Shown: positions 3,559 through 6,466 of the stretch, piece by piece
Layout: every line of letters begins with the position of its first letter
Position numbering within the stretch: the first letter of the stretch is position 1
Sequence record: GQ981382
Origin: Shigella phage SP18
Reading direction: 5' to 3' (one strand)
Length of the DNA: 64,000 nucleotides
Notes under the pieces: model-generated
The model's input: only the letters and a program-made list of their open reading frames with translations
Databases searched by the model: none
What the model was told of the DNA's origin: nothing
Position numbers and translations under genes: made by a program

Positions 3559-4002
3559 TTAAATTTCAAATTCTTTGCGGAAGTTGGAAGCATAAGACTG
3601 AACTGATGCTTTGTTGAATCCAAACTCACGCACAATCATATCAATAACAGCCCTACGAGCGGCACCATTAGACATATTGACAGTTTTGAACATATCATAG
3701 CATAAATCTTTGTTGCTCATACCGGAGCGTTTAGGTGTCTTACGTTCAGTTTTTGGTTCAGTCTTAGGAGTAGGTTTAACTTCTGGTTTAACCTGTCCAT
3801 CATTCAGACCTTTAAAAATTTTACCTGCCAGAGTTGCCAGTTTAGCAGCTTCGCCACGAGTGATACCAAATACTGCCGGGTTAAATGAAATACCTTCAGC
3901 TGTCAGACGTTTAAAGAACATACGTGCGGCGGATTGTGCTTCAGCTTCAGAAGAGTTGTTTAATGCCAGTTTAACATACTTAACCAGTTTTGAAGTTTTC
4001 AT
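3559..4002 (-). CDS. hypothetical protein sharing a C-terminal domain (AARRAxID...VQSYASNFRK) with the upstream paralog
   Basis: Internal ATG at 4000-4002; C-terminal 45 aa alignable with gene 4086-4511. Confidence 0.55.
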   Translation of the reverse strand: MKTSKLVKYVKLALNNSSEAEAQSAARMFFKRLTAEGISFNPAVFGITRGEAAKLATLAGKIFKGLNDGQVKPEVKPTPKTEPKTERKTPKRSGMSNKDLCYDMFKTVNMSNGAARRAVIDMIVREFGFNKASVQSYASNFRKEFEI

Positions 4003-4085: not shown

Positions 4086-4511
4086 TTATTTTTGAGCTTT
4101 GCGGAAGTTGGATGCATATGACTGAACAACAGTCTTTTTGATATCATGGGTGGTAACCAGAACATCAATCAGAGCGCGACGAGCTGCATTATCATTCATA
4201 TCAATTTCTGAAAATGCCTGGAAGCAAATGTCACGAGCGTTACCAGATTTGGACTGGATTTTTTCTTCTTTAACTTCTTCAATTGGGAATTCAATCATTT
4301 CAGCTTGGATTAATTCAATGATAGATTCTTTTGACTGTTTGGTGTTTACCTTCAGTTCAGAATTAAGGGACTTGGCGATGGCAACAATCTGGGTTGAAGT
4401 CAGATGAATAAGTGCATCTTCACGAATGCAGATTTCACATACTTCGTCAGCAACCATTTTGTTGGTGATGCGGGTAACAGAGAATGCAGAGGTCAGGGTC
4501 AGGAAGTTCAT
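4086..4511 (-). CDS. hypothetical protein, paralog of 3559-4002
   Basis: ATG at 4509-4511 with GGAG RBS; C-terminal ...NAARRALIDVLV...VVQSYASNFRK. Confidence 0.55.
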   Translation of the reverse strand: MNFLTLTSAFSVTRITNKMVADEVCEICIREDALIHLTSTQIVAIAKSLNSELKVNTKQSKESIIELIQAEMIEFPIEEVKEEKIQSKSGNARDICFQAFSEIDMNDNAARRALIDVLVTTHDIKKTVVQSYASNFRKAQK

Positions 4512-4542
4512 TTTATTTCTCCAAAGTTTTGTTTGATTCAGT

Positions 4543-4591
4543 GTGTAACTCAGTATGGAATCATTATGCACCCGGTCAATTCGGATGTACA
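4543..4591 (-). promoter_or_regulatory. sigma70-like early promoter repeat (-35 TGTACA, 17 bp, -10 CATAAT, conserved leader)
   Basis: Immediately downstream of minus-strand terminator and upstream of gene 4086-4511. Confidence 0.5.
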
Positions 4592-4630
4592 CTACTTTTT
4601 GAAGAAAATTTCAAATTTATTCGGGGTATA

Positions 4631-4659
4631 AAAAAAGCCCCAACCTTTCGGAAGGGGCT
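4631..4659 (-). terminator. rho-independent terminator (AGCCCC-loop-GGGGCT then U7 on minus strand) downstream of tRNA region
   Basis: Stem 4636-4641/4654-4659, A-run 4631-4636 on plus. Confidence 0.6.
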
Positions 4660-4660
4660 A

Positions 4661-4860
4661 TACCTTGTCGGGGTTCCACCTGCAAGGCAAGTGTTTGTAC
4701 GAAACGCCGGGATTCGAACCCGGTTATTAAGCAGTTGACGCTACTCAATATTTTTAAAAGGCCATATCTCGACCATATCCGAACGTTCCGTCAAAAACGC
4801 TACTCGGCTTACGGCAAAGATATTTCCTCGAATCGATAATTCGGTGCGCCGTTTCAGCTG
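4661..4860 (-). ncRNA. candidate stable RNA with a perfect tRNA-like T-arm (CCGGG-TTCGAAT-CCCGG) that does not fold as a canonical tRNA
   Basis: No ORF over about 300 nt between tRNA cluster and terminator; T-arm at complement 4704-4720; possible acceptor-like pairing CGGAACG/CGTTTCG. Confidence 0.3.
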
Positions 4861-4960
4861 TGAGATAAGGGACTTTAAGAGGTCAACTCATGTACGCCTT
4901 AAAGTCGGGTCTTATTCAGGGAACTTCAGTCCGACGACTTACCGGTAGCGACCCGGTTTC

Positions 4961-5200
4961 TCATTCAATTGTAATAGCTAATTTGACTTTAACAACCTTA
5001 TAATTGGAATCAAGGTCATTGAATTCCATAAAATTTGTTGCTAATCTGCGAGTCGGGAAACTTAGATATTTATTATGCTCAGGTGGAGCAGTTAATGCAA
5101 ACCATGGGACTTGTTTATCATTTTCATCAAACTCATCAAAGCTATAAACCAGCTCGTTGCTGGTTATATCCATAACTGCATATGATTCACTAATAACCAT
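4961..5200 (-). CDS. hypothetical protein
   Basis: ORF track 79 aa immediately downstream of tRNA cluster. Confidence 0.45.
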   Translation of the reverse strand: MVISESYAVMDITSNELVYSFDEFDENDKQVPWFALTAPPEHNKYLSFPTRRLATNFMEFNDLDSNYKVVKVKLAITIE

Positions 5201-5215
5201 AATATCCTCAGTAAT

Positions 5216-5291
5216 TGGTCGAGACAGTAGGGATCGAACCTACGACCTAGGACTTAGAAGGTCCTTGCTCTTCCTTCTGAGCTATGCCTCG
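5216..5291 (-). tRNA. tRNA-Arg (anticodon UCU), CCA encoded
   Basis: Manual cloverleaf: acceptor CGAGGCA/TGTCTCG, D-stem GCTC/GAGC, anticodon stem AGGAC/GTCCT with loop CTTCTAA, T-arm GTAGG-TTCGATC-CCTAC. Confidence 0.8.
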
Positions 5292-5298
5292 TAATTTG

Positions 5299-5370
5299 CG
5301 GACACACATGGATTCGAACCATGGACCAATTGATTAACAGTCAACTGCTCTACCACTGAGCTATGCATCC
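5299..5370 (-). tRNA. tRNA-Asn (anticodon GUU), CCA not encoded
   Basis: Manual cloverleaf: D-arm GCTC-AGTGGTA-GAGC, anticodon loop CTGTTAA, T-arm CATGG-TTCGAAT-CCATG, acceptor with two G-U pairs. Confidence 0.75.
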
Positions 5371-5374
5371 AAAT

Positions 5375-5449
5375 TGGTGGCCCTTGCTGGTTTCGATCCA
5401 GCTACCTATCAGTTATGAGCTGACAGCTCTCCCATTGAGCTAAAGGGCC
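5375..5449 (-). tRNA. tRNA with CAU anticodon (Met or Ile2), CCA encoded
   Basis: Manual cloverleaf: acceptor GGCCCTT/AAGGGCC, D-arm GCTC-AATGGGA-GAGC, anticodon loop CTCATAA, T-arm GCTGG-ATCGAAA-CCAGC. Confidence 0.75.
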
Positions 5450-5542
5450 AATTCTATTATGAAAGGCTCTTTGAGGGAAGAACCTTTGGTAATAGAGGGT
5501 ACTTATTAATAATAACACATAACTCTTAAAGCATATTACTTG

Positions 5543-5944
5543 TTAACCTTCATCAACAATAGTATGTGTATTGGCATTGACAATCTGCCACCAGTCAAAA
5601 CGGTTGGAACCATAACAAGGCTTCTTCTCGTTTTCTTTAATGATAACGCGCAGTTCATCTTCAGTCGCAGCCTTTGCGATTAAGTCAGCATAACCGCCAC
5701 GAGGATAATAGCTATCACCCGCGAACAAAAGGAAATTTACCTTCCCAGAAGGGATATAGGCTTCCTTTGGATACTTGTTTCCTGCATGGTCTACCACTTC
5801 AATATAACGATAAGGAATATCAGTATTTTCAATCCATTGCCACGCCGCGGCAGGAGAATCAAAAGCATCTACACCTAAACGGTTATCTTCATCTTTAGAC
5901 GGGTTATTTTCATAATCCGCATATACATAATATTCAACGTTCAT
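5543..5944 (-). CDS. hypothetical protein
   Basis: ORF track 133 aa; TAATG overlap with upstream small ORF. Confidence 0.5.
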   Translation of the reverse strand: MNVEYYVYADYENNPSKDEDNRLGVDAFDSPAAAWQWIENTDIPYRYIEVVDHAGNKYPKEAYIPSGKVNFLLFAGDSYYPRGGYADLIAKAATEDELRVIIKENEKKPCYGSNRFDWWQIVNANTHTIVDEG

Positions 5945-6063
5945 TATTCACCTTTAGAGATTTTATCCATAACGAAAGAGATTGAACCAATTAAAAATGC
6001 AACTACTAAAGAGATTATATTCTCAGAAGTTGAAAGCATATTCAACATAAAGCCAGCAAACAT
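5944..6063 (-). CDS. small hydrophobic peptide (39 aa), possibly the 3' part of a gene split by a frameshift from the 21-aa ORF at 6065-6130
   Basis: ATG at 6061-6063 without RBS; upstream tiny ORF 6065-6130 has a strong GAGGAG RBS and ends in a T-run. Confidence 0.3.
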   Translation of the reverse strand: MFAGFMLNMLSTSENIISLVVAFLIGSISFVMDKISKGE

Positions 6064-6150
6064 GCTAAAACCAAAAAGCGGTAACAGCAACAAGGGCAGT
6101 AACATTTCTAATTAATTCGCAACGTTTCATTTTATTCTCCTCAGTAGTTG

Positions 6151-6187
6151 ATGGGATAATCATACTACAGTTATCCCATCACGTACA
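6151..6187 (-). promoter_or_regulatory. early promoter variant: -35 TGTACG, 17 bp, -10 TATGAT inside inverted repeat GATGGGATAA/TTATCCCATC
   Basis: Near-duplicate of element at 6484-6521. Confidence 0.45.
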
Positions 6188-6466
6188 CTAAATTTTTGTA
6201 TATTGTCCAGCTTTAACTTTTTTCAGTTCACGAGGGCTTACCGCGTAAGTGAATGGAGCATTCCAGGAAGAACTGACTTTGTAACCTTTAGTCAACATCA
6301 TTGCTGAAACTTTCTTGTTATCAGGACCGTTTTCGCCTTTAACAAGAAACAACTCAAATGCGCCACCATCAACCGGTTTGGCCTTAACCATCAGATATCC
6401 TTTCAGGTCTTCCAGCATATCCGGGTGACTAATTGATTCGTTAATAAATTCTTGATAAGTTTTCAT
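6188..6466 (-). CDS. internal protein (IP) family member with capsid-targeting N-terminus MKTYQEFINE
   Basis: N-terminal 10 aa matches the T4 IP capsid targeting sequence; promoter with TATAAT in hairpin loop upstream. Confidence 0.7.
   Translation of the reverse strand: MKTYQEFINESISHPDMLEDLKGYLMVKAKPVDGGAFELFLVKGENGPDNKKVSAMMLTKGYKVSSSWNAPFTYAVSPRELKKVKAGQYTKI

What the first reader, a model, noticed from the sequence alone, without database searches (positions are those of the whole stretch)
4661..5449. tRNA cluster (Arg-UCU, Asn-GUU, CAU-anticodon tRNA) plus an ORF-free 300-nt region carrying an isolated tRNA-like T-arm
Three clean cloverleaves lie at 5216-5449 on the minus strand. Downstream, 4661-4960 has no ORF but contains a perfect T-arm (CCGGG-TTCGAAT-CCCGG) with a possible acceptor-like pairing (CGGAACG/CGTTTCG) about 90 nt apart, followed by a strong minus-strand terminator. 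This may be a stable non-tRNA species, as reported for the T4 tRNA region (small stable RNA species), or a degenerate long-arm tRNA.
Basis: partly seen in the sequence, partly recalled or inferred. Interest (0 to 1): 0.45.

Follow-up and report, generated by a model that had tools for sequence, protein, structure and literature searches.

The report
T4 stable RNAs rnaD and rnaC
The ORF-free stretch after the three tRNA genes is this T4-like phage's copy of two small stable RNAs, species 2 (rnaD) and species 1 (rnaC), which have been known in phage T4 since the 1970s and whose function is still unknown, so the finding is real but already known.

Summary
Three minus-strand tRNAs lie at 5216-5449, and a perfect T-arm at 4723-4707 is followed by an intrinsic terminator at 4659-4630.

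The window is a T4-like (Straboviridae) phage. The ORF-free stretch aligns end to end with T4 rnaD (species 2; window 4964-4843) and rnaC (species 1; window 4836-4698). rnaC differs from T4 at 2 of 139 bases. rnaD keeps both ends but carries a different central hairpin.

Its alternative, a degenerate long-arm tRNA, and its proposed acceptor pairing CGGAACG/CGTTTCG are not supported by covariation.

In 22 distinct homologues rnaC folds as a four-way junction:
- a 5'-terminal acceptor stem;
- a long arm I;
- a 10-bp arm II;
- a T-arm;
- two invariant, mutually complementary 6-nt loops (UUGACG/CGUCAA), with one compensatory change in one lineage.

rnaD is a small hairpin plus a long hairpin whose apical part comes in four unalignable sequence types.

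The two RNAs occur independently of each other in related phages. Neither has an Rfam family, and most GenBank records leave them unannotated or call them hypothetical proteins. Function remains unknown. A processed tRNA mimic is my best guess for rnaC.

The parts
5375..5449 (-). tRNA with anticodon CAT, first gene of the cluster. Probably tRNA-Ile2 (AUA, lysidine) rather than Met.
   Evidence: ARAGORN; Rfam tRNA 61.4 bits. It shares the acceptor GGCCC.../...GGGCC and the loop CTCATAA with the annotated T4 tRNA-Ile, and with E. coli ileX as I recalled it from memory.
5298..5370 (-). tRNA-Asn (GTT)
   Evidence: ARAGORN; Rfam 71.8 bits.
5216..5291 (-). tRNA-Arg (TCT)
   Evidence: ARAGORN; Rfam 66 bits.
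4961..5200 (-). 79-aa ORF inserted between tRNA-Arg and rnaD. Its TGA stop codon overlaps the first bases of rnaD. Absent in T4.
   Evidence: ORF list; full-length match to phrog_33509, function unknown, E = 5e-57. In T4, tRNA-Arg abuts rnaD. The same ORF precedes rnaD in L022.
4843..4964 (-). rnaD (T4 species 2 RNA) homologue; ends set by homology to the T4 annotation. P1 hairpin 4957-4941 (ACCGG-GUCGCUA-CCGGU). P2 4938-4932 with 4851-4844. P3a 4925-4922 with 4859-4856. Variable hairpin 4918-4861.
   Evidence: Alignment to T4 rnaD: the first 39 nt are identical, the last 23 differ at one base, and the centre is replaced. Covariation on 23 distinct sequences: 96.9% of cells paired, 5 pairs with changes on both sides, slid controls 31-50%.
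4861..4918 (-). Hypervariable apical hairpin of rnaD, 'type C' in this phage. The hairpin architecture is kept but the sequence cannot be aligned with T4's.
   Evidence: Four sequence types among 23 distinct rnaD sequences, each folding to a hairpin of similar size. The basal pairs covary: 49-101 GC10/AU8, 50-100 UA20/GC3, 51-99 AU20/UA3.
4698..4836 (-). rnaC (T4 species 1 RNA) homologue, 139 nt, differing from T4 at 2 bases. A four-way junction: acceptor 4835-4829 with 4706-4700; arm I 4828-4759; linker 4758-4751; arm II 4750-4725; T-arm 4723-4707.
   Evidence: Alignment. The covariance model built from 22 homologues scores 178 bits at 4691-4840. MFE -50.2 kcal/mol, z = -4.55, with the same fold. 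RNAalifold gives the same junction independently. 94.5% of cells paired, 18 pairs with changes on both sides, 0 of 500 shuffles as good. The first 58 nt are identical to the published T4 RNAC Northern-probe template (PMC9697503).
4789..4794 (-). Apical loop of arm I, UUGACG. Proposed kissing partner of 4740-4735.
   Evidence: Perfectly complementary to the arm II loop CGUCAA. Five pairs are invariant. The sixth is C-G in 20 sequences and U-A in 2 (the Tegunavirus lineage, UUGAUG/CAUCAA).
4735..4740 (-). Apical loop of arm II, CGUCAA. Proposed kissing partner of 4794-4789.
   Evidence: The arm II stem has 8 of 10 pairs with compensatory changes, while the loop is invariant except for the matched change above.
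4707..4723 (-).
   Evidence: Stem pair 122-134 is G-C in 12 sequences, U-A in 9 and A-U in 1; pair 121-135 is C-G in 20 and U-A in 2. The loop is not universally a T-loop: it is UGCAUCC or UGCAUGC in Winklervirus-like homologues.
4660..4697 (-). Conserved 3' trailer between rnaC and the terminator. It starts with the CAAAC that continues the conserved UACAA tail. Its fold is unresolved.
   Evidence: Conserved in T4 and relatives. It is kept directly after rnaD in phages that lack rnaC. Two competing weak hairpins are predicted.
4630..4659 (-). Intrinsic terminator of the tRNA/stable-RNA operon.
   Evidence: Fold of -16 kcal/mol, z = -3.5, followed by U7. In T4, transcription of the tRNA cluster terminates after the species I gene (PMC2330249).

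Best explanation
Window 4964-4698 (minus strand) encodes the homologues of bacteriophage T4's two small stable RNAs: rnaD (species 2, 4964-4843) followed by rnaC (species 1, 4836-4698). They form the distal end of the phage tRNA operon.

Shown here:
- Both RNAs are homologous to the T4 genes over their full length.
- rnaC folds as a tRNA-shaped four-way junction. A 7-bp acceptor stem, formed by the RNA's own 5' end and the strand next to the T-arm, abuts a 5-bp T-stem with no intervening base on the 3' strand, giving 12 bp as in tRNA. The D and anticodon arms are replaced by a 70-nt bent arm I and a 10-bp arm II. The 6-nt loops of these two arms are mutually complementary.
- rnaD is a 5-bp hairpin plus a long hairpin with a conserved base and a swappable apical part.

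Inferred from the structure, from the flanking tRNAs in other genera and from the T4 literature:
- The RNAs are transcribed through from the promoter(s) of the tRNA cluster as part of one precursor, which stops at the terminator 4659-4630.
- Host tRNA-processing nucleases cut them out. RNase P would cut at the 5' side of the rnaC acceptor. Endo- and exonucleases would trim back to the rnaD P2 helix and to the rnaC UACAA tail.
- They accumulate because they are compactly folded.

Guess at function (about 0.25 confidence): rnaC is a tRNA mimic. The tRNA machinery handles it, but it cannot decode. It would engage a conserved host or phage tRNA-binding factor. The variable rnaD hairpin would be a host-specific interaction surface.
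For: Identity:
- The window is 99.8% identical to Escherichia phage 212, and 762 T4-like records match the stretch.
- The T4 record annotates rnaD at 71053-71171 and rnaC at 70908-71046, directly after tRNA-Arg.
- The window aligns to both. rnaC has 2 differences in 139 nt. The 5' and 3' parts of rnaD are near-identical.
- A published T4 RNAC probe sequence is identical to 4836-4779.

rnaC structure:
- Searches agree on the fold.
- Acceptor pair 8-141 is A-U in 10 sequences and G-C in 12.
- Arm II has 8 of 10 pairs with compensatory changes.
- The T-stem has 2 covarying pairs.
- The kissing loops are complementary in all 22 sequences, with one matched double change.

rnaD structure.

tRNA-like handling:
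- In Karamvirus, Winklervirus and Moonvirus relatives, rnaC sits in an unannotated gap of about 150 nt. It follows the CCA end of tRNA-Trp and comes a few bases before tRNA-Gly.
- In Providencia phage PSTCR6, rnaD sits between tRNA-Arg and tRNA-Ile.

Literature:
- RNAC and RNAD are late-accumulating RNAs seen by Northern blot, with unknown function (PMC9697503; PMC3014915).
- A single SNP shared by all three lines of a T4-like phage evolved on host ECOR34 lies in rnaD (PMC12685909).
Against: - No expression data exist for this particular phage. The ends are transferred from the T4 annotation and could be off by 1-2 nt.
- The acceptor stem has tandem U.U mismatches in 20 of 22 sequences, so only 73% of its cells pair.
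- No CCA is encoded after rnaC. The conserved tail is UACAA.
- The T-loop is non-canonical in Winklervirus-like homologues. This weakens a strict tRNA-mimic reading.
- The kissing-loop covariation rests on one lineage, which is one evolutionary event.
- rnaC is precisely absent from otherwise similar phages, so it is dispensable in at least some settings.
- The high identity to T4 could partly reflect frequent recombination in this region, which is prone to homing-endonuclease activity, rather than selection alone.
- Nothing here demonstrates any function.
Confidence: 0.9

Rival explanations
1. The stretch is a degenerate class-II (long variable arm) tRNA or tRNA pseudogene. CGGAACG/CGTTTCG would be its acceptor stem, and the 5' part would be leader sequence.
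For: For T-even-type sequences a cloverleaf can be drawn: acceptor 4790-4784/4706-4700, a D-like UCGG-AUAUGG-UCGA, an anticodon-like GAUAU/AUAUU stem around CUUUUAA, arm II as the variable arm, and the T-arm. Rfam gives a weak tRNA-Sec hit at 4699-4791 (16.6 bits, E = 2.6). A few GenBank records carry tRNA-OTHER or tRNA-Lys features under this match. An evolutionary origin from a tRNA gene remains plausible.
Against: ARAGORN and RF00005 do not call it. The acceptor shows no compensatory change and gives A.C in 10 of 22 sequences. The D-like and anticodon-like helices have zero covariation, with 500 of 500 shuffles as good, and the anticodon-like stem breaks in roughly half of the homologues. 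CGGAACG instead covaries within a local hairpin, where pair 46-53 is U.G in 12 sequences, U-A in 8 and A-U in 2. The annotated T4 RNA starts 46 nt upstream of that heptamer.
Confidence: 0.05
2. The two RNAs have no trans-acting function. They are cis-acting processing, stability and termination modules of the tRNA operon. Alternatively they are selfish tRNA-like cassettes that persist because they are cut out cleanly and are harmless.
For: In T-even-type phages they lie at the 3' end of the operon, next to the terminator. rnaC is precisely absent in related phages with the same tRNA set (L023, L025-L028). rnaC and rnaD occur independently and in different positions, like shuffling cassettes. 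No antisense target above chance was found in the window. No function has been found in about 50 years (PMC3014915).
Against: In Karamvirus, Winklervirus and Moonvirus, rnaC is internal to the cluster, between tRNAs and far from any terminator. Loops, internal loops and the 3' tail are invariant across genera that infect Escherichia, Yersinia, Serratia, Enterobacter, Cronobacter, Erwinia and Salmonella, while the stems covary. That pattern fits a specific partner better than neutral persistence. The RNAs accumulate as abundant stable species in T4 (PMC9697503). A convergent adaptive SNP falls in rnaD (PMC12685909).
Confidence: 0.25
3. The stretch encodes small proteins, as annotated ('hypothetical protein') in most GenBank records of T4-like phages.
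For: Mechanical ORFs of 34-84 aa overlap the region on both strands. Many records annotate one to three hypothetical proteins here.
Against: Substitutions are compensatory in RNA helices. The ORFs sit on different strands and frames in different records, and none is conserved. For example, the AUG at the rnaD 5' end is absent in most homologues. In T4 the products are annotated as stable RNAs and were detected by Northern blot (PMC9697503).
Confidence: 0.02
4. rnaC is a tmRNA-like or aminoacylatable tRNA-like RNA that enters the ribosome.
For: It has an acceptor/T-arm minihelix enclosing a large insert, which is formally the tmRNA layout.
Against: ARAGORN finds no tmRNA. There is no G3.U70; position 3-70 is A-U or G-C. 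No CCA is encoded, and the conserved tail is UACAA. There is no conserved tag ORF. It has no match to any Rfam family, including tmRNA and the tRNA clan, above noise.
Confidence: 0.03

Closest known systems
Bacteriophage T4 rnaC (species 1 / RNA C) and rnaD (species 2 / RNA D), annotated in NC_000866 at 70908-71046 and 71053-71171
   Same: Same genes by homology, in the same order and orientation: tRNA cluster, then rnaD, rnaC, trailer and terminator. rnaC has 2 differences in 139 nt. rnaD has the same 5' 39 nt and the same 3' end.
   Different: A 79-aa ORF separates tRNA-Arg from rnaD here, whereas the two abut in T4. The apical rnaD hairpin is a different sequence type. The upstream tRNA set is CAU/Asn/Arg instead of T4's eight, and the tRNA-Arg is a different sequence.
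Canonical tRNA (Rfam RF00005)
   Same: 7-bp acceptor stem contiguous with a 5-bp T-stem; 7-nt loop UUCGAAU; location inside tRNA clusters, flanked by tRNAs in several genera; four-way junction topology.
   Different: No D-arm and no anticodon arm. The two other arms are 70 nt and 26 nt and appear locked by a loop-loop interaction. There are tandem U.U mismatches in the acceptor. No CCA is encoded. It is not detected by tRNA models.
tmRNA tRNA-like domain, and bacterial Y-RNA-like YrlA (tRNA-like module); resemblance recalled from memory
   Same: RNAs in which an acceptor/T-arm module encloses or adjoins a large non-tRNA domain, and which are processed by tRNA enzymes.
   Different: No sequence or covariance-model similarity. 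No G3.U70 or tag ORF (tmRNA). No Ro-binding helix, and E. coli, as I recall it, has no Rsr (YrlA).
Large phage-associated structured ncRNAs found near tRNA genes (ROOL, GOLLD); resemblance recalled from memory
   Same: Phage-borne, adjacent to tRNA genes, highly structured, function unknown. As I recall, loop-loop contacts are important in their higher-order assembly.
   Different: rnaC is only 139 nt, has no Rfam match to those families, and has an explicit tRNA-like minihelix.

Membership tests
T4 rnaC (species 1 RNA) | Full-length sequence homology to the T4 rnaC gene | tested here: met
   137 of 139 positions identical to NC_000866 70908-71046. 178-bit hit of the family covariance model at 4691-4840.
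T4 rnaC (species 1 RNA) | Position: same strand as and downstream of the tRNA genes and rnaD, followed by the operon terminator | tested here: met
   Order on the minus strand is tRNA-CAU, Asn, Arg, (ORF), rnaD, rnaC, trailer, terminator.
T4 rnaC (species 1 RNA) | Accumulates as a stable RNA of about 140 nt in infected cells | not testable with these tools
   Shown for T4 by Northern blot (PMC9697503). No data exist for this phage.
T4 rnaD (species 2 RNA) | Sequence homology to the T4 rnaD gene | tested here: met
   The 5' 39 nt are identical and the 3' 23 nt differ at one base. The central ~58 nt are replaced by an unalignable hairpin of similar size. The shared helices P1, P2, P3a and P3b are conserved.
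Canonical tRNA | Cloverleaf with D-arm and a 5-bp/7-nt anticodon arm; detected by tRNA models (RF00005 at 29 bits or more; ARAGORN) | tested here: not met
   No call by ARAGORN or RF00005 in 4620-4965. The candidate D-like and anticodon-like helices lack covariation and break in many homologues.
Canonical tRNA | Acceptor stem contiguous with a T-arm | tested here: met
   A 7-bp acceptor (with 2 U.U mismatches) is contiguous with a 5-bp T-stem. Both have covarying pairs.
Canonical tRNA | 3'-terminal NCCA (encoded or added) and aminoacylation | tested here: inconclusive
   Not encoded; a conserved UACAA follows the acceptor. Post-transcriptional addition cannot be tested here.
tmRNA | G3.U70 in the acceptor, a resume codon and tag ORF, pseudoknots; detected by ARAGORN or Rfam | tested here: not met
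   No tmRNA call. Pair 3-70 is A-U or G-C.
Any Rfam 15 family | Match at the gathering threshold | tested here: not met
   Only the three tRNAs pass in the whole window. In 4500-5300 nothing relevant has E < 0.5. rnaC and rnaD therefore have no Rfam family.

The most novel reading that the evidence does not exclude
rnaC is not a passive by-product. It is a tRNA-shaped RNA whose two non-tRNA arms are joined by a conserved 6-bp loop-loop (kissing) interaction, either within one molecule or between molecules. It would act as a mimic or decoy for a conserved tRNA-binding factor of Enterobacterales or of the phage. rnaD would be a separate module whose exchangeable apical hairpin tunes the phage to particular hosts, for example by countering a strain-specific defence. 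The convergent rnaD SNP seen in experimental evolution on ECOR34 hints at this.
Probability: 0.15. Interest if true: 0.7.

Novelty: already known. Interest (0 to 1): 0.3.

Why it matters
As a scan result this is a rediscovery. Species 1 and species 2 RNAs of T4 were, as I recall, sequenced in the 1970s, and they are annotated in the T4 reference genome.

It still has practical value:
- About 800 T4-like phage records carry the locus. In the roughly 150 rows listed, only T4, RB27, RB55 and ATK47 name it. The other listed records leave it blank, call hypothetical proteins across it, or occasionally call a spurious tRNA.
- No Rfam family exists for either RNA.
- The function of these abundant RNAs is one of the oldest open questions in T4 biology.

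The comparative model built here gives concrete, cheap experiments: the correct acceptor stem, a candidate kissing loop, a hypervariable rnaD hairpin, natural rnaC-minus relatives, and rnaC embedded between tRNAs in other genera.

Tried and rejected
1. It has no compensatory change and gives A.C in 10 of 22 sequences. Rejected in favour of the 5'-terminal acceptor.

2. Class-II tRNA cloverleaf for the 3' two-thirds of rnaC. Zero covariation. Rejected as the conserved fold.

3. Alternative register for the rnaD middle helix (CUGAUGU/ACAGCAG). It works only for T4-type flanks, with 7-9 mismatches in the others and no covariation. Rejected in favour of UGUU/AGCA.

4. Pairing between the rnaD P1 loop (CGCUAC) and the two GUAGCG motifs of rnaC. 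All of these positions are invariant, and the two RNAs occur without each other. Not pursued.

5. A PrrC/tRNA-Lys decoy idea, based on CUUUUAA in the rnaC linker. The heptamer is not conserved outside T-even-type sequences. Dropped.

6. A peptide from the AUG at the rnaD 5' end. The AUG is absent in most homologues. Dropped.

7. Antisense targets. The longest exact complementarity of rnaC or rnaD to either strand of the window was 11-13 nt, no better than shuffled queries.

8. Bacterial origin. No exact match to the rnaC or rnaD core patterns in 185,579 species genomes.

9. More distant homologues. Relaxed patterns in IMG/VR returned the same lineages, and blastn from the most divergent member found nothing outside Tevenvirinae-type phages.

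10. Exact late promoter (TATAAATA) upstream of rnaD. None within 4600-6200 on the minus strand.

11. Literature. No paper in the held library assigns a function. Miller et al. 2003 could not be opened in the held library, and no 1970s sequencing paper turned up in the searches, so I cannot say whether the kissing loop or the acceptor model was proposed before.
Full report
**1. The observation**

The minus strand of 5216-5449 carries three tRNAs: Arg-TCT 5216-5291, Asn-GTT 5298-5370 and CAT 5375-5449. ARAGORN and Rfam RF00005 (61-72 bits) agree.

Downstream, 4723-4707 reads CCGGG-TTCGAAT-CCCGG. The 11-mer GGTTCGAATCC occurs exactly twice in 64 kb, here and in tRNA-Asn.

The heptamers CGGAACG (4790-4784) and CGTTTCG (4706-4700) are present.

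A terminator follows. 4659-4630 folds at -16 kcal/mol (z = -3.5) and ends in U7. The simple scan missed it because the stem has interior mismatches.

No tRNA or tmRNA is called in 4620-4965. The best Rfam match there is tRNA-Sec at 16.6 bits, E = 2.6. Only mechanical ORFs of 34-84 aa overlap the stretch.

**2. What it is**

The stretch matches 762 phage records, almost all T4-like phages of Escherichia, Shigella, Yersinia and Enterobacter. The best match is Escherichia phage 212 at 99.8%.

The T4 reference record annotates two misc_RNAs directly after tRNA-Arg: rnaD ('small, stable RNA; species 2') and rnaC ('species 1'). The window aligns to both from end to end.

- **rnaC** = window 4836-4698, with 2 differences in 139 nt.
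- **rnaD** = window 4964-4843. The first 39 nt are identical, the last 23 differ at one base, and the central ~58 nt are replaced by unrelated sequence.

The template that Wolfram-Schauerte et al. used for a T4 RNAC Northern probe is identical to 4836-4779 (PMC9697503).

The T-arm is the 3' end of rnaC.

**3. Structure of rnaC**

I collected 22 distinct homologues from GenBank phages, IMG/VR and metagenomes (alignment A4).

Three independent approaches give the same four-way junction: the MFE of the window sequence alone (-50.2 kcal/mol, z = -4.55), RNAalifold on the alignment, and my manual model.

The junction has these parts:
- **Acceptor:** 4835-4829 with 4706-4700.
- **Arm I:** 4828-759 in the 48xx series, that is 4828-4759. 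It is a long helix interrupted by an AA/GG internal loop, a U.Y (U.C or U.U) mismatch, a conserved internal loop and an AGU bulge. It ends in the loop UUGACG.
- **Linker:** 8 nt, A/U-rich.
- **Arm II:** 4750-4725, a 10-bp stem with the loop CGUCAA.
- **One A**, then the **T-arm** at 4723-4707.

On the alignment, 94.5% of cells pair. Eighteen pairs show changes on both sides, and 0 of 500 shuffles do as well. Slid controls pair at 35-42%.

Key pairs:
- Acceptor 8-141 is A-U in 10 sequences and G-C in 12.
- Acceptor 9-140 and 10-139 are U.U in 20 sequences, and U-A and C-G in the Yersinia-phage lineage.
- T-stem 122-134 is G-C in 12, U-A in 9 and A-U in 1.
- Arm II has 8 of 10 pairs with compensatory changes.

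The two apical loops are perfectly complementary, UUGACG with CGUCAA. They are invariant in 20 sequences. In the Tegunavirus lineage they change together, to UUGAUG and CAUCAA. This suggests a 6-bp kissing interaction.

Two cautions apply. The support is one evolutionary event plus a chance complementarity of 1 in 4096. The data also cannot say whether the contact forms within one molecule or between molecules.

After the acceptor, U4699, C4697, A4696 and A4695 are invariant in all 22 sequences (the tail UACAA). No CCA is encoded.

**4. What the covariation rejects**

That heptamer instead forms the 3' half of the local hairpin AGCGUUU-UUGACG-GAACGUU. The closing pair of that hairpin is U.G in 12 sequences, U-A in 8 and A-U in 2.

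For T-even sequences, a class-II-like cloverleaf can be drawn on the 3' two-thirds of rnaC. This explains the weak tRNA-Sec hit. It also explains the occasional 'tRNA-OTHER' or 'tRNA-Lys' features in GenBank.

Its D-like and anticodon-like helices show no covariation, with 500 of 500 shuffles as good, and the anticodon-like stem breaks in about half of the homologues. A tRNA ancestry remains possible. A tRNA fold does not.

**5. Structure of rnaD**

From 23 distinct sequences (alignment A5) the model has four helices and a variable apical hairpin.

- **P1:** ACCGG-GUCGCUA-CCGGU. Its closing pair is A-U in 16 sequences, G-C in 5 and G.U in 2.
- **P2:** GUCGUCG with CGGCG(C)AC, essentially invariant (22-23 of 23 sequences at every pair).
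- **P3a:** UGUU/AGCA. Its first pair is U-A in 14 sequences, A-U in 7 and mismatched in 2.
- **P3b:** UGR-NUAAG with CUUAN'-bulge-UCA. Three of its pairs covary.
- **Apical hairpin:** variable; window 4918-4861.

Overall 96.9% of cells pair, 5 pairs show changes on both sides, and slid controls pair at 31-50%. An alternative register fails.

The apical part comes in four sequence types. All are hairpins of similar size. They combine with either flank variant, so the pattern is mosaic. The window carries 'type C' and T4 carries 'type A'.

The 3' end is ...GCGCACC followed by A in T4, but by G or other bases elsewhere. A CCA end is therefore not conserved.

**6. Distribution and modularity**

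- In Karamvirus, Winklervirus and Moonvirus relatives, rnaC occurs without rnaD. It sits in an unannotated gap of about 150 nt between tRNA-Trp and tRNA-Gly. The preceding tRNA ends in CCA a few bases upstream, and the next tRNA begins just after UACAAA.
- In the Tegunavirus Yersinia phage fHe-Yen9-01, rnaC also occurs without rnaD. There it follows an ORF and is followed by a tRNA-like sequence ending in CCA.
- In Providencia phage PSTCR6, rnaD alone sits between tRNA-Arg and tRNA-Ile.
- In L023 and L025-L028, which are T4-like contigs, rnaD, the trailer and the terminator are kept. L023 and L027 have the same CAU/Asn/Arg tRNA set as the window. The 146-nt rnaC cassette is precisely missing: the sequence reads ...GCGCAC(C/A)GAA|CACTTGCC....
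- Neither core pattern occurs in 185,579 bacterial and archaeal species genomes.

The two RNAs are therefore independent, phage-specific cassettes that behave like tRNA genes within tRNA clusters. rnaC is not essential in every phage.

**7. How it most likely works**

*Shown:* identity, fold and genomic behaviour.

*Inferred for biogenesis:*
- In T4 a middle promoter upstream of the cluster drives a precursor of about 1.75 kb. [quoted passage not shown]
- The window has the same layout and the same terminator. It also has a candidate MotA-type promoter at 5533-5509. I identified that promoter from a consensus I recalled from memory, and it is not tested.
- The rnaC acceptor and T-stem are contiguous on the 3' strand, giving a 12-bp minihelix. 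As I recall, a minihelix of this kind is the minimal RNase P substrate.
- rnaC also sits between tRNAs in other genera. Together these points make excision by the host tRNA-processing enzymes the natural explanation for its discrete ends and its stability.

*Function:* still unknown. PMC3014915 (2010), PMC9697503 (2022) and PMC12685909 (2025) all say so.

My best guess, at about 0.25 confidence, is that rnaC is a tRNA mimic that engages a conserved tRNA-binding factor. Its loops, internal loops and tail are invariant across phages of seven host genera while its stems covary.

rnaD's exchangeable hairpin may be a host-specific interaction surface. The only experimental hint is that the single SNP shared by all three lines of a T4-like phage evolved on ECOR34 lies in rnaD (PMC12685909). 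I could not map that SNP onto the model because the paper gives no accession.

The main rival, at about 0.25, is that both RNAs are harmless cassettes that are processed cleanly and have no trans function.

**8. Comparison and novelty**

The locus belongs to the T4 rnaC and rnaD families. It fails the tests for tRNA, tmRNA and every Rfam family.

As a finding it is already known. Three things may be new, although I could not check them against the 1970s-80s literature, which is not in the held library:
- the covariation-supported acceptor;
- the candidate kissing loop;
- the typing of the rnaD hairpin.

The practical point is annotation. Of about 800 records with the locus, only T4, RB27, RB55 and ATK47 name it among the ~150 rows listed. 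No Rfam family exists.

**9. Dead ends**

- No antisense target above chance in the window.
- No exact late promoter nearby.
- No second copy in the window.
- No more distant homologues from relaxed patterns or from blastn with the most divergent member.

Noticed in passing
window 4961-5200 (-): A 79-aa ORF (phrog_33509, function unknown) sits between tRNA-Arg and rnaD, where T4 has only 2 nt. Its TGA stop lies inside the AUGAGAAACC that begins T4 rnaD. The same ORF precedes rnaD in L022. In this phage the rnaD 5' end therefore cannot be made by trimming a tRNA 3' trailer.
   Followed up: partly
window 5375-5449 (-): ARAGORN labels the CAT-anticodon tRNA as Met. It shares its acceptor (GGCCC/GGGCC) and anticodon loop with the annotated T4 tRNA-Ile, and with E. 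coli ileX as I recalled it from memory. It lacks initiator features. It is probably a lysidine-dependent tRNA-Ile2 that reads AUA.
   Followed up: partly
L023 7295-7450, and L025-L028 (IMG/VR T4-like contigs): These related phages lack the 146-nt rnaC cassette precisely; L023 and L027 have the same CAU/Asn/Arg tRNA set as the window. The junction reads GCGCAC(C/A)GAA|CACTTGCC. They keep rnaD, the trailer and the terminator. They are natural rnaC-minus relatives and could serve for functional comparison.
   Followed up: yes
window 3559-4002 and 4086-4511 (-): Two adjacent ORFs just downstream of the terminator are paralogues. They share a C-terminal domain ending ...VQSYASNFRK, and each matches the other's family (phrog_9997 and phrog_18416, plus phrog_17275; all of unknown function). 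T4 has e.8 at this position.
   Followed up: partly
window 5509-5533 (-): TGCTTTA, a 12-nt spacer and TATTAT lie about 60 nt upstream of the first tRNA. This looks like a MotA-dependent T4 middle promoter, judged against a consensus I recalled from memory. It fits the report that a middle promoter just upstream of the cluster drives the whole T4 tRNA operon (PMC2330249).
   Followed up: no
window 4660-4697 (-): The trailer between rnaC and the terminator (CAAACACUUGCCUUGCAGGUGGAACCCCGACAAGGUAU) is conserved in T4 and relatives, and is retained in rnaC-less phages. Two mutually exclusive small hairpins are possible. I found no covariation to choose between them.
   Followed up: partly
GenBank records under hits H1-H150: Most T4-like phage records listed annotate one to three 'hypothetical proteins' across rnaC/rnaD, or nothing. 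A few carry tRNA-OTHER or tRNA-Lys features under the match. In the rows listed, only T4, RB27, RB55 and ATK47 name the RNAs. The Karamvirus and Winklervirus records leave a blank gap of about 150 nt between tRNA-Trp and tRNA-Gly, where rnaC lies.
   Followed up: yes
window 5216-5291 versus L001 3174-3248: The window's tRNA-Arg(TCT) is a different sequence from T4's tRNA-Arg(TCT), although both precede rnaD. L025, L026 and the Providencia phage carry the T4-type tRNA-Arg. The tRNA region is strongly mosaic, which fits SegB-type homing activity. [quoted passage not shown]
   Followed up: no
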